Below are positions 7,816 to 11,218 of a DNA stretch of 11,218 nucleotides, one piece after another. The stretch's first letter is position 1, and each line of letters starts with the position of its first letter. A model generated the notes under the pieces. That model searched no databases and was not told the DNA's origin. It was given only the letters and a program-made list of their open reading frames with translations. This DNA comes from a virus (lineage: Duplodnaviria > Heunggongvirae > Uroviricota > Caudoviricetes), in the IMG/VR virus record IMGVR_UViG_2667528065_000004, one strand, 5' to 3'. The position numbers and the translations under genes were made by a program.

Positions 7816-8090
7816 ATGTCTCGACTAATCACTTTACAGGACTGGGCTAATCACCTTTCCGGACTGGGCTAAAGAAGAATTTGGGGACTTAGCACCAAGT
7901 GAGCGAGTTCTGAAAAAATACGCGCAAGGGAAAATGATGGCCCCACCCGCTAGGGAAAATGATGGCCCCACCCGCTATAAAAGTTGGTCGCTACTGGATG
8001 ATTGACCGAAATTCCCGTTTTGTAGGAACGCTTGCAGAACCGCCAACTCCCAATAAACGCAAACCCAAAACTCCAACGGATAATCGCTGA
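7816..8090 (+). pseudogene. xis: Excisionase (Xis-like) gene disrupted by two duplication-type insertions
   Basis: ATG 7816 with AGGAGG RBS; frame stops after 18 codons. Removing the 22-bp insert (7851-7872, an imperfect copy of 7829-7850) and the perfect 25-bp tandem duplicate (7953-7977 = 7928-7952) restores a continuous ~75-aa Xis-like ORF MSRLITLQDWAKEEFGDLAPSERVLKKYAQGKMMAPPAIKVGRYWMIDRNSRFVGTLAEPPTPNKRKPKTPTDNR whose TGA overlaps the int ATG at 8090. Confidence 0.65.
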
Positions 8091-9232
8091 TGGCTGCTAG
8101 ACCCCGATCTCACAAAATCTCTATACCCAATTTATATTGCAAATTAGATAAGCGAACCGGAAAGGTATATTGGCAATACAAACATCCACTATCCGGTCGT
8201 TTTCATAGCTTAGGAACTGATGAGAATGAAGCAAAACAAGTTGCTACTGAAGCAAATACCATTATTGCTGAACAACGTACCCGACAAATATTAAGCGTCA
8301 ATGAGCGTCTAGAAAGAATGAAAGGCAGGCGTTCAGACATTACGGTGACAGAATGGCTTGATAAATATATTTCTATCCAGGAGGACAGGCTGCAACATAA
8401 TGAACTAAAACCCAACTCCTATCGGCAAAAAGGTAAACCCATTCGTCTTTTCCGTGAGCATTGTGGAATGCAACACCTCAAGGATATTACCGCACTTGAT
8501 ATTGCCGAAATAATTGATGCTGTAAAGGCTGAAGGTCATAACAGGATGGCGCAAGTCGTGAGAATGGTGTTGATCGACGTCTTCAAAGAAGCACAACACG
8601 CAGGACATGTTCCGCCAGGATTTAACCCAGCGCAGGCAACAAAACAACCGCGAAATCGAGTAAACCGCCAAAGATTATCACTGCCCGAATGGCAGGCAAT
8701 ATTTGAAAGCGTAAGCAGACGGCAGCCCTATTTAAAATGCGGCATGCTACTTGCTCTTGTTACTGGACAACGTTTAGGCGATATCTGCAATTTGAAATTC
8801 TCTGATATATGGGACGACATGTTGCACATTACTCAGGAAAAAACCGGTTCAAAACTTGCTATTCCGCTTAGCCTGAAATGCGATGCTCTGAATATTACCC
8901 TTCGTGAAGTTATATCTCAGTGCAGGGATGCTGTTGTTAGTAAATATCTGGTCCATTACCGTCACACTACCTCTCAAGCAAACAGAGGAGACCAGGTTTC
9001 TGCAAATACTCTTACAACGGCTTTTAAAAAGGCCAGGGAAAAATGTGGCATAAAATGGGAGCCAGGAACTGCGCCCACATTTCATGAGCAGCGATCTCTG
9101 TCAGAACGGTTATATCGGGAACAGGGTCTGGATACGCAAAAGTTGTTAGGTCATAAATCCAGAAAAATGACCGACCGATACAATGATGATCGTGGTAAAG
9201 ACTGGATTATCGTAGATATCAAAACAGCATAG
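8090..9232 (+). CDS. int: Tyrosine recombinase / phage integrase (e14 IntE / phage 21 Int type)
   Basis: Intact 380-aa ORF MAARPRSHKISIPNLY...; C-terminal catalytic region with HxxR and Tyr (LGHKSRKMTDRY); adjacent to the attachment site in icd. Confidence 0.9.
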   Translation: MAARPRSHKISIPNLYCKLDKRTGKVYWQYKHPLSGRFHSLGTDENEAKQVATEANTIIAEQRTRQILSVNERLERMKGRRSDITVTEWLDKYISIQEDRLQHNELKPNSYRQKGKPIRLFREHCGMQHLKDITALDIAEIIDAVKAEGHNRMAQVVRMVLIDVFKEAQHAGHVPPGFNPAQATKQPRNRVNRQRLSLPEWQAIFESVSRRQPYLKCGMLLALVTGQRLGDICNLKFSDIWDDMLHITQEKTGSKLAIPLSLKCDALNITLREVISQCRDAVVSKYLVHYRHTTSQANRGDQVSANTLTTAFKKAREKCGIKWEPGTAPTFHEQRSLSERLYREQGLDTQKLLGHKSRKMTDRYNDDRGKDWIIVDIKTA

Positions 9233-9242
9233 AAAATAGCCA

Positions 9243-9279
9243 GTTTTGGGGAAGGGTTTTGGGGAAAGTTTTGGGGAAG
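9243..9279. repeat. Three direct repeats of GTTTTGGGGAA (9243-9254, 9256-9267, 9268-9279) between the int stop and the icd 3' end; candidate integrase arm-type sites
   Basis: Seen directly. Location next to int and the att region is consistent with P'-arm-type binding sites. They could also belong to the same duplication phenomenon seen elsewhere. Confidence 0.45.
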
Positions 9280-9294
9280 ATTTTACATCATCAT

Positions 9295-9324
9295 AAAACA
9301 ACGGGCGTGTTATACGCCCGTTTC
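9295..9324. terminator. Rho-independent terminator, best oriented for icd (minus strand), possibly bidirectional for int
   Basis: Perfect 8-bp stem acgggcgt (9301-9308) / acgcccgt (9314-9321), 5-nt loop. On the minus strand it is followed by UGUUUUAUGA, 25 bp downstream of the icd stop. Confidence 0.65.
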
Positions 9325-9348
9325 AATATTTAACACATGTAGTAGTGA

Positions 9349-10700
9349 TTACATATTCTTGATGATCGCGTCACCAAACTCTGAACATTTCAGCAGCAGT
9401 TTAGCGCCTTCCATCAGACGTTCGAAGTCATAGGTTACGGTCGGCGTTGGCGTTGATTGCGCCTTCCATACCTTTAACAATCAGGTCTGCGGCTTCAGTC
9501 CAGCCCATATGGCGCAGCATCATCTCAGCGGAGAGAATAATAGAGCCTGGGTTTACTTTGTCCTGTCCGGCATATTTCGGCGCAGTACCGTGGGTGGCTT
9601 CAAACAGGGCGCATTCGTCACCGATGTTTGCGCCAGGGGCGATACCGATACCACCAACCTGCGCTGCCAGGGCGTCAGAAATGTAGTCACCGTTCAGGTT
9701 CATACAGGCGATAACATCATATTCAGCCGGACGCAGCAGGATCTGTTGCAGGAATGCATCAGCAATCACGTCTTTAATGACGATCTCTTTGCCGGTATTC
9801 GGGTTTTTAACTTTCAGCCACGGGCCGCCGTCGATCAGTTCACGGGCCGCCGTCGATCAGTTCACCGCCAAATTCTTCACGCGCCAGCTGGTAGCCCCAG
9901 TCTTTAAACGCGCCTTCGGTGAACTTCATGATGTTGTCTTTAAACGCGCCTTCGGTGAACTTCATGATGTTGCCTTTGTGCACCAGGGTGTTGACTTCAT
10001 GATGTTGCCTTTGTGCACCAGGGTCACAGAGTCAACGATCGTTAGCAATTGCGTATTCGATCGCTGCACGAACCAGACGTTTGGTGCCTTCTTCCGAACA
10101 CGGCTTAATACCGATACCGCAATGTTCCGGGAAGCGAATTTTCTTCACGCCCATCTCTTCACGCAGGAATTTAATCACTTTCTCAGCGTCGGCAGAGTCT
10201 GCTTTCCATTCGATACCCGCATAAATGTCTTCCGAGTTTTCACGGAAGATAACCATATCGGTCAGTTCAGGGTGTTTAACCGGGCTTGGAGTGCCCTGAT
10301 AGTAACGTACCGGACGCAGGCAGATGTAGAGATCCAGTTCCTGGCGCAGGGCAACGTTCAGAGAGCGAATACCGCCACCAACCGGAGTGGTCAGCGGGCC
10401 TTTAATGGCAACGCGATATTCACGAATCAGATCAAGGGTTTCAGCAGGCAACCAGACGTCCTGACCATAAACCTGTGTGGATTTTTCACCGGTGTAAATT
10501 TCCATCCAGGAGATTTTACGCTCGCCTTTATAGGCTTTCTCGACTGCAGCGTCGACCACTTTCAGCATGGCTGGGGTTACATCTACACCGATTCCATCAC
10601 CTTCAATGTAAGGGATAATCGGATTTTCAGGAACGTTGAGTTTGCCGTTTTGCAGGGTGATCTTCTTGCCTTGTGCCGGAACAACTACTTTACTTTCCAT
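9349..10700 (-). pseudogene. icd: Isocitrate dehydrogenase gene icd, reading frame broken by multiple insertions
   Basis: N-terminal ORF 10032..10700 is Icd ([26 protein letters not shown]...EYAIANDR*). ORF 9428..9769 is the Icd C-terminal region in another frame. The final segment YDFERL...[11 protein letters not shown] ends at 9349. Span is 1352 bp versus 1251 bp for a 416-aa Icd plus stop. The 101 extra bp are accounted for by a 1-bp insertion (~10034), a ~35-bp duplication (9990-10024), a 36-bp tandem duplication (9937-9972), a 22-bp tandem duplication (9841-9862), a 4-bp insertion (~9449-9456) and a CTG insertion (~9397-9405). Confidence 0.85.
9819..10024. repeat. Three tandem duplications inside icd: 22 bp x2 (9819-9840 / 9841-9862), 36 bp x2 (9901-9936 / 9937-9972), ~35 bp x2 (about 9955-9989 / 9990-10024, imperfect at its 5' edge)
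   Basis: Seen directly: cacgggccgccgtcgatcagtt x2; tctttaaacgcgccttcggtgaacttcatgatgttg x2; ttcatgatgttgcctttgtgcaccagggt repeated after a gttgac spacer. Confidence 0.9.
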
Positions 10701-10871
10701 TCACCTCTCCTTCGAGCGCTACTGGTTTGCTCGTCTGCCACCACGTTGCATATGCGTTTGCGTCCTGCGATACGGATGCTTTAGAGCAATTTTTTGTTAA
10801 TGATTTGTAATTGGCTTGTCAATACTACCCTATTGTTTGCCGTCATGAAAGATGCGCGTTATTAGGCTATA

Positions 10872-11218
10872 ATGCGGCAATTCATAATCTCTGAAAATAC
10901 CATGCAAAAAACTTCTTTTAGAAATCACAAGGTTAAGCGATTCAGCTCGCAACGTTCTACCAGACGAAAACCTGAAAACCAGCCCACGCGTGTGATCCTG
11001 TTCAATAAACCCTACGATGTTCTTCCGCAGTTCACCGATGAAGCCGGACGCAAAACATTGAAGCCGGACGCAAAACATTAAAAGAATTCATCCCGGTTCA
11101 GGGGGTGTATGCGGCAGGTCGTCTCGACCGCGACAGCGAAGGGTTACTGGTGCTGACCAATAACGGCGCTTTGCAGGCGCGTTTAACCCAGCCGGGTAAA
11201 CGTACCGGGAAAATCTAG
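10872..11218 (+). pseudogene. rluE: 23S rRNA pseudouridine synthase RluE gene, 5' part, frameshifted by a 20-bp tandem duplication; continues past the window end
   Basis: Translation [63 protein letters not shown] matches the RluE N-terminus as I recall it. gaagccggacgcaaaacatt is duplicated at 11040-11059 / 11060-11079, producing a premature stop at 11079-11081. The downstream sequence encodes the expected continuation ([44 protein letters not shown]) in the original frame. Confidence 0.8.

What the first reader, a model, noticed from the sequence alone, without database searches (positions are those of the whole stretch)
9349..10700. Host icd carries six independent insertions, mostly perfect short tandem duplications, totalling exactly the 101 bp excess over a canonical icd
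The Icd N-terminus is intact up to ...EYAIANDR, where a single extra A (~10034) causes a stop. Further downstream the frame is repeatedly shifted by a ~35-bp duplication, a 36-bp tandem duplication, a 22-bp tandem duplication, a 4-bp insertion and a 3-bp CTG insertion, yet every segment between the events still encodes recognisable Icd sequence in some frame. Such a dense set of undiverged insertions in a central metabolic gene is not typical of natural pseudogenisation. It suggests either very recent events such as replication slippage in a mutator or relaxed background, or an assembly or sequence-construction artefact.
Basis: partly seen in the sequence, partly recalled or inferred. Interest (0 to 1): 0.6.

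Follow-up and report, generated by a model that had tools for sequence, protein, structure and literature searches.

The report
Assembly-made false duplications breaking icd
The six insertions that break the isocitrate dehydrogenase gene are really in this sequence, but they are almost certainly errors of a 2013 draft genome assembly (small stretches written twice where pieces were joined), not mutations in the bacterium.

Summary
The icd gene (9349-10700, minus strand) carries six insertions of 3, 4, 22, 36, 35 and 1 nt, 101 nt in all. Deleting them restores a 1251-nt gene whose 416-aa product is identical to WP_000444487.1.

The phenomenon is not specific to icd. The window is the whole GenBank draft contig AOQI01000107.1 (GCA_000397365.1). 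Against four near-identical complete E. coli genomes it has 13 indels, all insertions and all copies of adjacent sequence (1-4 nt or 20-36 nt). They also hit xis, the spacer upstream of xis, the spacer after icd, rluE and the junk-like left contig end. They fall in tight clusters with 46-107 nt spacing.

None of them occurs in 5426 complete E. coli genomes, in three contig collections, or in 153 billion catalogued gene positions. Two sister drafts of the same submission batch (AOQB01 = E. coli TOP379, and AOQL01) carry the same locus with different tandem insertions. Some sit at the same join points, and again there are no deletions. Imperfect copies have their errors next to the junction, and the end points show only chance-level microhomology.

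Best reading: under-collapsed overlaps between joined fragments of a low-quality short-read assembly. This is not a real feature, and interest is low.

The parts
9349..10700 (-). icd (NADP-dependent isocitrate dehydrogenase) CDS as written in this contig: 1352 nt, split into fragments of 222, 41 and 113 aa
   Evidence: It is colinear with the annotated icd of KC-Dl-1, UPEC132, YP3 and GN02350. Pfam Iso_dh is on record for the fragments. Removing the six insertions restores a 416-aa protein identical to WP_000444487.1.
10035..10035 (.). +1 A (a->aa), which creates the premature TGA at 10032-10034
9976..10010 (.). +35 nt, imperfect tandem copy (2 mismatches in the first 4 nt of the second copy); it overlaps the unit of the 36-nt event
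9902..9937 (.). +36 nt perfect tandem duplication (periodic run 9900-9972)
9844..9865 (.). +22 nt perfect tandem duplication (periodic run 9819-9865)
9443..9446 (.). +4 nt GGCG, flanked by two substitutions (9439 G, 9458 T) that match the allele of the residual icd' copy and of sister draft AOQL
9397..9399 (.). +3 nt CAG (in frame). Sister draft AOQB has a 31-nt duplication whose second copy starts at the same base.
9344..9346 (.). +3 nt AGT just downstream of the icd stop codon (outside the CDS)
9300..9519 (-). Phage-supplied replacement 3' end of icd plus its terminator hairpin (9300-9322). This segment is also present as a residual icd' remnant elsewhere in related genomes (a two-copy repeat).
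   Evidence: Alignment to the annotated 168-nt icd remnant of UPEC132, L010 48762-48929
7744..7767 (.). +24 nt (23-nt tandem copy plus one extra T next to the junction) in the spacer upstream of xis
7816..8100 (+). xis (excisionase) broken by +22 nt (7851, copy with 3 mismatches), +25 nt (7953, perfect) and +1 C (8044). It is restored exactly when these are removed.
8090..9232 (+). Integrase, 380 aa, untouched, lying between the clusters of insertions
   Evidence: Its being spared is not significant once the clustering is taken into account.
10872..11218 (+). 5' part of rluE, cut by the contig end and frameshifted by a perfect +20 nt tandem duplication at 11039-11058
1..55 (.). Garbled left contig end: poly-C runs, an imperfect duplication of about 18 nt of the phage O gene, and 29 nt that do not align to any reference
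   Evidence: Sister draft AOQB has a 26-nt tandem duplication about 20 nt from this point.

Best explanation
The insertions are errors of the draft assembly, not mutations. The contig appears to have been stitched from shorter fragments (reads or small sub-contigs), and the ends of adjacent fragments overlapped by 1 to about 36 nt. Where an overlap was not recognised and merged, the fragments were joined end to end and the overlapping bases were written twice. Overlaps could go unrecognised because they were too short, or because base-call errors sat at a fragment end. The result is an insertion-only spectrum of tandem copies that breaks every gene it touches (icd, xis, rluE) while leaving every other base correct. 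What is shown: the events exist, they are private to this contig, they are all tandem copies, they cluster, they recur in kind in sister drafts, and their removal restores all genes. What is inferred: the exact stitching step and software.
For: (1) Source. The window is the reverse complement of the whole GenBank WGS contig AOQI01000107.1, 11218 nt, assembly GCA_000397365.1.

(2) Private to this contig. None of 5426 complete E. coli genomes has the icd or xis insertions. A junction 28-mer is absent from the viral, genome and metagenome contig collections. The 113-aa and 41-aa broken-icd products occur on no other contig among 153 billion gene positions.

(3) Spectrum. There are 13 insertions and 0 deletions here, and 20 and 0 when two sister drafts are included (sign test about 1e-6). 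All are copies of adjacent sequence, 1-4 nt or 18-36 nt, never longer than 36.

(4) Not gene-specific. Events lie in icd, xis, rluE, two spacers and the phage O gene at the contig end.

(5) Clustering. Events are spaced 46-107 nt apart within four clusters (P about 5e-6). Both contig ends have an event within 180 nt, and the left end is poly-C junk.

(6) No other damage. Removing the insertions restores icd, xis and rluE with no amino-acid change.

(7) Sister drafts. AOQB01 (E. coli TOP379 according to PMC5060011) and AOQL01 hold the same locus, lack all of the window's insertions, and have their own: +26, +4 and +31 nt in AOQB; +1, +2, +18 and +22 nt in AOQL, one at the hflD/purB junction.

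(8) Shared join points. In bet, +TT and +TTAC have the second copy starting at the same base. In the icd 3' end, +CAG and +31 nt start at the same base. The window's contig starts about 20 nt from the +26 event of AOQB.

(9) Errors at the junction. The imperfect copies carry their mismatches within about 12 nt of the junction.

(10) No slippage signature. Microhomology at the end points is 0-3 nt, mean 1.1, near the chance value of 0.67.

(11) Suspect substitutions. The substitutions private to the window are all nonsynonymous, including a TT->CC doublet. One site is triallelic among the three sister drafts.

(12) Precedent. Under-collapsed 'homotype' false duplications caused by read errors and low depth are a recognised class of assembly error (PMC9516828).
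Against: No reads were available, so no junction was checked against raw data. The assembly method and coverage of GCA_000397365.1 are unknown to me, and the describing paper (PMC3695744) is not held. The recurrent join point in bet is not a repeat boundary in close relatives, and the clusters do not sit in regions of extreme G+C. What fixes the join points therefore remains unexplained. A real hotspot would also give recurrence at the same site.
Confidence: 0.9

Rival explanations
1. The duplications are real, very recent mutations. They would have been produced by replication slippage or flap-processing failure in a mutator background (for example a Pol I 5'-nuclease defect), with icd, xis and rluE tolerated as losses.
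For: The spectrum is insertion-only short tandem duplications, which resembles what I recall for yeast rad27 and E. coli polA 5'-exonuclease mutators. icd, xis and rluE are dispensable in rich medium (general knowledge). Sister isolates also carry duplications.
Against: Events cluster at 46-107 nt spacing instead of spreading over the contig: none lie between 53 and 7743. One lies within 55 nt of a contig end among poly-C junk. There are no flanking direct repeats beyond chance. Copies differ by up to 3/22 while the surrounding 11 kb differs from relatives by about 0.1%, and those differences sit at the junction. No event is shared between the sister drafts, although they share lineage alleles. 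At roughly one event per 1-6 kb, a genome would carry about a thousand or more, which is hard to reconcile with viability. No other public assembly holds any of the events.
Confidence: 0.04
2. The errors come from collapsing the two genomic copies of the icd 3' end into one consensus. The two copies are the phage-supplied copy and the residual icd' remnant.
For: Window 9300-9519 is a two-copy segment in related genomes. The window's alleles at 9439 and 9458 equal the remnant's alleles. Sister draft AOQL has a 'GC' at icd codon 406 that is the remnant's allele, next to phage-copy alleles. Three of the window's events and one of AOQB's fall in this segment.
Against: This can account only for the cluster at 9344-9443. 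The events at 9844-10035, 7744-8044 and 11039 and those in the sister drafts (bet, O, mid-icd, hflD/purB) lie in sequence that is single-copy in relatives.
Confidence: 0.05
3. The window was altered after download (synthetic corruption or a planted decoy).
For: The pattern looks designed: only insertions, with genes restored exactly on removal.
Against: The window is identical over all 11218 nt to the public record AOQI01000107.1. Sister records of the same submission show the same kind of event.
Confidence: 0.01

Closest known systems
Under-collapsed ('homotype') false duplications in draft genome assemblies (Ko et al. 2022, Genome Biol, PMC9516828)
   Same: The same locus is written twice because reads with errors or low depth were not merged. 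The copies are adjacent, specific to one assembly, and create false gene disruptions or gains.
   Different: That class was described at kb scale in vertebrate assemblies, usually with a gap between the copies. Here the copies are 1-36 nt, directly abutting, in a bacterial short-read draft with no N.
Uncollapsed end overlaps when adjacent de Bruijn-graph contigs or reads are concatenated (my own knowledge of assemblers, not tested here)
   Same: Perfect copies are never longer than a plausible k-1 or read length (36 nt maximum). The spectrum is insertion-only. Join points recur between assemblies made by the same pipeline.
   Different: The software and parameters of this assembly are unknown. 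The lengths vary (18-36) rather than being one fixed k-1.
Short tandem duplications in flap-endonuclease-deficient mutators (yeast rad27; E. coli polA 5'-exonuclease mutants), recalled from the literature
   Same: Insertions that duplicate tens of bases in tandem.
   Different: Those duplications are flanked by short direct repeats and are scattered genome-wide and heritable. Here microhomology is at chance level, events are clustered, and they are not shared by sister isolates.
Lambdoid prophages integrated in icd (e14 / phage 21 type) that supply a replacement icd 3' end
   Same: The integrase and excisionase genes sit next to icd. About 164 nt of icd 3' end is provided by the prophage, and a 168-nt icd' remnant is annotated in UPEC132.
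   Different: This known arrangement is only the setting. It explains the two-copy segment 9300-9519 but not the insertions.

Membership tests
E. coli icd (NADP-dependent isocitrate dehydrogenase gene) | Colinear, near-identical to annotated icd, with conserved neighbours (int on one side, rluE on the other) | tested here: met
E. coli icd (NADP-dependent isocitrate dehydrogenase gene) | Encodes a full-length Iso_dh protein | tested here: not met
   As written, the reading frame stops after 222 aa. It is met only after the six insertions are removed.
Natural pseudogene | Disruptions accompanied by substitutions, and by an indel spectrum that includes deletions | tested here: not met
   There are 0 amino-acid changes after repair and 13 insertions to 0 deletions.
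Natural pseudogene | The same lesions seen in independent sequences of the lineage | tested here: not met
   The lesions are absent from 5426 complete genomes, from the two sister drafts and from all catalogued contigs.
Assembly false duplication (under-collapsed overlap) | The inserted bases are a tandem copy of adjacent sequence | tested here: met
   All 20 events in the three drafts
Assembly false duplication (under-collapsed overlap) | Specific to one assembly, with other assemblies from the same pipeline showing the same kind of event at other or the same join points | tested here: met
Assembly false duplication (under-collapsed overlap) | Associated with contig ends or poorly supported stretches, with sequence errors next to the junction | tested here: met
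Assembly false duplication (under-collapsed overlap) | Junctions unsupported, or supported at very low depth, by raw reads | not testable with these tools
   No read data are reachable. No Logan assembly carries this lineage's exo allele.
Slippage / flap-defect mutator signature | Duplications bounded by short direct repeats (microhomology above chance) | tested here: not met
   0-3 nt, mean 1.1, against about 0.67 expected
Slippage / flap-defect mutator signature | Events scattered along the genome rather than clustered | tested here: not met

The most novel reading that the evidence does not exclude
The duplications are real. In that case a clinical uropathogenic E. coli lineage would undergo bursts of localised, error-prone short tandem duplication: repeated template switching during repair synthesis at recurrent hotspots. 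Sibling isolates would then each carry different alleles at the same sites, including independent inactivations of icd.
Probability: 0.03. Interest if true: 0.7.

Novelty: not a real feature. Interest (0 to 1): 0.05.

Why it matters
As biology it does not matter: the isolate very probably has an intact icd, xis and rluE. It matters as a warning. This draft, and its sister drafts in the AOQ batch, contain insertion-only false duplications at roughly one per 1-6 kb in the locus examined. Such errors create false pseudogenes, false frameshifts and unique 'orphan' protein fragments. These fragments have already entered large protein collections, as the 41-aa and 113-aa products show. Pseudogene counts, pangenome analyses or mutation-spectrum inferences that include these assemblies would be distorted.

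Tried and rejected
(a) I searched for a duplication junction in the viral, genome and metagenome contig collections and found nothing. The source was found instead by exact look-up of the truncated protein.

(b) I asked whether the contig ends seen in other assemblies at exactly icd codon 222 mark a repeat boundary that coincides with the window's stop codon. I rejected this. The remnant icd' covers only the last ~165 nt. The protein cluster also holds partial Icd products of many lengths, so the coincidence comes from querying for exactly that length.

(c) I tested whether all events lie in the two-copy icd/icd' segment. Only the 9344-9443 cluster does.

(d) I tested whether the recurrent join point in bet is a repeat boundary. 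Both halves of bet are single-copy in the close relatives.

(e) I tested whether the clusters sit in extreme G+C where coverage would drop. They do not.

(f) I tested whether the integrase being spared indicates selection. P = 0.006 if the 12 events were independent, but with four clusters it is about 0.2, so not significant.

(g) I tried to read the paper that describes the isolates (Chen et al. 2013). It is not held. Accession searches gave only the identity AOQB01 = TOP379.

Full report
**What is there**

The window is colinear over 30-11217 with a lambdoid prophage integrated at icd in E. coli KC-Dl-1 and other phylogroup-B2-like strains. The gene order is replication gene O, ydaT/ydaS, a cI-like repressor, kil, gam, bet, exo, xis, int, then host icd (minus strand) and rluE.

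Against KC-Dl-1 there are 13 mismatches and 13 indels. Every indel is an insertion in the window, 199 nt in all. The same 13 insertions appear against UPEC132, YP3 and GN02350.

Six insertions lie inside the icd CDS 9349-10700. They are +3 at 9397, +4 at 9443, +22 at 9844, +36 at 9902, +35 at 9976 and +1 at 10035. The extra A gives the stop after ...ANDR.

**It is not an icd phenomenon**

Seven further events of the same kind lie outside the CDS:
- +3 nt just 3' of the icd stop (9344).
- +24 nt in the spacer upstream of xis (7744).
- +22, +25 and +1 nt inside xis (7851, 7953, 8044).
- +20 nt in rluE (11039).
- A garbled left end (1-55) with poly-C runs and an imperfect duplication of about 18 nt of the O gene.

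Every event is a copy of the adjacent bases. Sizes fall in two classes, 1-4 nt and 20-36 nt.

The events form tight clusters at 7744-8044, 9344-9443 and 9844-10035, plus 11039 and the left end. Spacings within clusters are 46-107 nt, and there are no events between 53 and 7743. Eight of 12 gaps are <=110 nt, P about 5e-6 under uniform placement.

Removing the insertions restores icd (416 aa, identical to WP_000444487.1), xis and the rluE 5' part, without a single amino-acid change.

**Where the sequence comes from**

An exact look-up of the truncated 222-aa Icd product identified the source as GenBank WGS contig AOQI01000107.1. This contig is 11218 nt long and belongs to draft assembly GCA_000397365.1. 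The window is its full reverse complement. That excludes any tampering with the window. It also shows that both window ends are contig ends, so there is an aberration within 55 nt of one end and within 180 nt of the other.

The insertions are private to this record:
- No complete RefSeq E. coli genome (5426) has the icd or xis insertions.
- A junction 28-mer is absent from three contig collections.
- The duplication-dependent 41-aa and 113-aa products occur on no other contig among 153 billion gene positions.

**Sister assemblies**

The window's exonuclease allele (Q38) is found only in two other records, AOQL01000123.1 (GCA_000397425.1) and AOQB01000005.1 (GCA_000397225.1). These have neighbouring accession numbers in the same submission batch. 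AOQB01 is E. coli TOP379 according to PMC5060011. From memory, the 'TOP' strains are the recurrent-UTI isolates of Chen et al. 2013. That paper is not held, so I could not read the methods.

Over about 17 kb of the same locus, the sister drafts have none of the window's insertions but have their own:
- AOQB: +26 nt (O gene), +4 nt TTAC (bet), +31 nt (icd 3' end).
- AOQL: +1 nt, +2 nt TT (bet), +18 nt (mid-icd), +22 nt (hflD/purB junction).

All of these are tandem copies and there are no deletions, giving 20 insertions to 0 deletions over the three drafts.

Three join points recur:
- In bet, the second copy starts at the same base in AOQB and AOQL, and only the overlap length differs (4 against 2 nt).
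- In the icd 3' end, the window's +CAG and AOQB's +31 nt both have the second copy starting at 'cagtttagcgcc'.
- AOQB's +26 nt lies about 20 nt from where the window's contig begins.

**Anatomy of the copies**

Seven long copies are perfect, and their end points share only 0-3 nt of microhomology (mean 1.1, chance about 0.67). They therefore lack the flanking direct repeats expected of slipped-strand or flap-mediated duplication.

The imperfect copies carry their discrepancies next to the junction:
- 7744: an extra T about 5 nt from the junction.
- 7851: 3 mismatches, 7-12 nt after it.
- 9976: 2 mismatches, 3-4 nt after it.
- AOQB +31: 1 mismatch, about 8 nt before it.

These copies differ by up to 14%. 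The rest of the contig differs from its relatives by about 0.1%. Divergence after a real duplication cannot explain that difference.

The substitutions private to the window (163, 6840, 7416-7417) are all nonsynonymous and include a TT->CC doublet. The shared lineage alleles, in contrast, are mostly synonymous. One site (window 5354) is T in all references, G in two drafts and A in the third. These are signs of a low-accuracy consensus.

**Mechanism proposed (inferred)**

Adjacent fragments (reads or small sub-contigs) overlapped by 1 to about 36 nt. They were joined end to end where the overlap was not detected. Short overlaps give the 1-4 nt class. Longer overlaps, some spoiled by end errors, give the 18-36 nt class.

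This model explains several features at once:
- the insertion-only spectrum;
- the tandem nature of every event;
- the ceiling at 36 nt;
- the errors at the junctions;
- the read-length spacing inside poorly covered stretches;
- the association with contig ends;
- the recurrence of join points across drafts made by the same pipeline;
- the perfect restoration of all genes on removal.

It corresponds, at a small scale, to the under-collapsed 'homotype' false duplications described for draft assemblies (PMC9516828).

In the segment 9300-9519, confusion between the phage-supplied icd 3' end and the residual icd' remnant probably contributes. The remnant is annotated in UPEC132. The window's 9439G/9458T and AOQL's 'GC' at icd codon 406 are remnant alleles.

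**What remains unexplained**

I could not determine what fixes the join points. The bet site is not a repeat boundary in relatives, and the clusters are not in extreme G+C. I saw no reads and do not know the assembler.

**Rivals**

A real mutator or slippage origin (about 4%) is contradicted by several findings:
- the clustering of events;
- the link to contig ends;
- the lack of microhomology;
- the junction-proximal errors;
- the absence of shared events among sister drafts that share lineage alleles;
- the implied load of about a thousand or more events per genome.

Repeat collapse alone explains only one cluster. Synthetic tampering is excluded.

**Verdict**

The feature is an assembly artefact, and interest is low. 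Its practical value is as a flag that the AOQ-batch drafts generate false pseudogenes and orphan protein fragments.

Noticed in passing
window 195-288: There are four to five copies of a ~20-nt unit, TTTACCTGATTCGGGTAAAC, itself an inverted repeat, inside the phage replication gene O. They look like the origin iterons of a lambdoid phage. They are also present in the reference genomes, so they are not part of the artefact.
   Followed up: no
window 9242-9284: Three and a half copies of AGTTTTGGGGAAG lie between the int stop codon and the icd terminator hairpin (9300-9322). They are present unchanged in the references. They may be integrase arm-type sites of the attachment region.
   Followed up: no
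window 5354 (exo codon 38): This site is triallelic: T in four complete genomes, G in the window and AOQL, and A in AOQB. The resulting Q38 protein is found only in these three drafts among all catalogued contigs. This suggests a systematic base-call problem in this batch rather than a lineage SNP.
   Followed up: partly
window 163, 6840, 7416-7417: The substitutions private to this contig are all nonsynonymous (O K196Q, I3T in a 71-aa protein, F2P in the DUF4222 protein via a TT->CC doublet). The DUF4222 variant exists on no other catalogued contig. These are probably consensus errors.
   Followed up: partly
L017 (AOQB01000005.1) 17243 onward; L018 (AOQL01000123.1) 14994-15015: In the sister drafts the PhoQ product is listed as 497 aa against 486 aa in five other E. 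coli loci, which hints at another in-frame insertion. A 22-nt tandem copy also duplicates the start of purB.
   Followed up: partly
L018 10624-10625 (icd codon 406): Two adjacent bases carry the allele of the residual icd' remnant, inside an otherwise phage-type icd 3' end. This is a 2-nt chimera between the two repeat copies, and read alone it would create a stop codon.
   Followed up: partly
L003-L007 (contig ends at icd nt 666-669): Many unrelated public contigs (69 index blocks) end within icd at exactly codon 222, the same point as the window's premature stop. I judged this to be an effect of querying for that exact length, because partial Icd products of many other lengths exist. I did not examine why so many contigs break there.
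   Followed up: partly
L009 1-3400 and L010 48762-48929 (UPEC132): The sitABCD iron/manganese transporter operon lies between the prophage tail genes and the 168-nt residual icd' remnant. It is therefore inside the region bounded by the two icd-derived attachment sequences.
   Followed up: no
window 11218 and 1-29: The last base of the contig (G) disagrees with all references (T). The first 29 nt do not align to any reference. Both contig ends are untrimmed low-quality sequence.
   Followed up: yes
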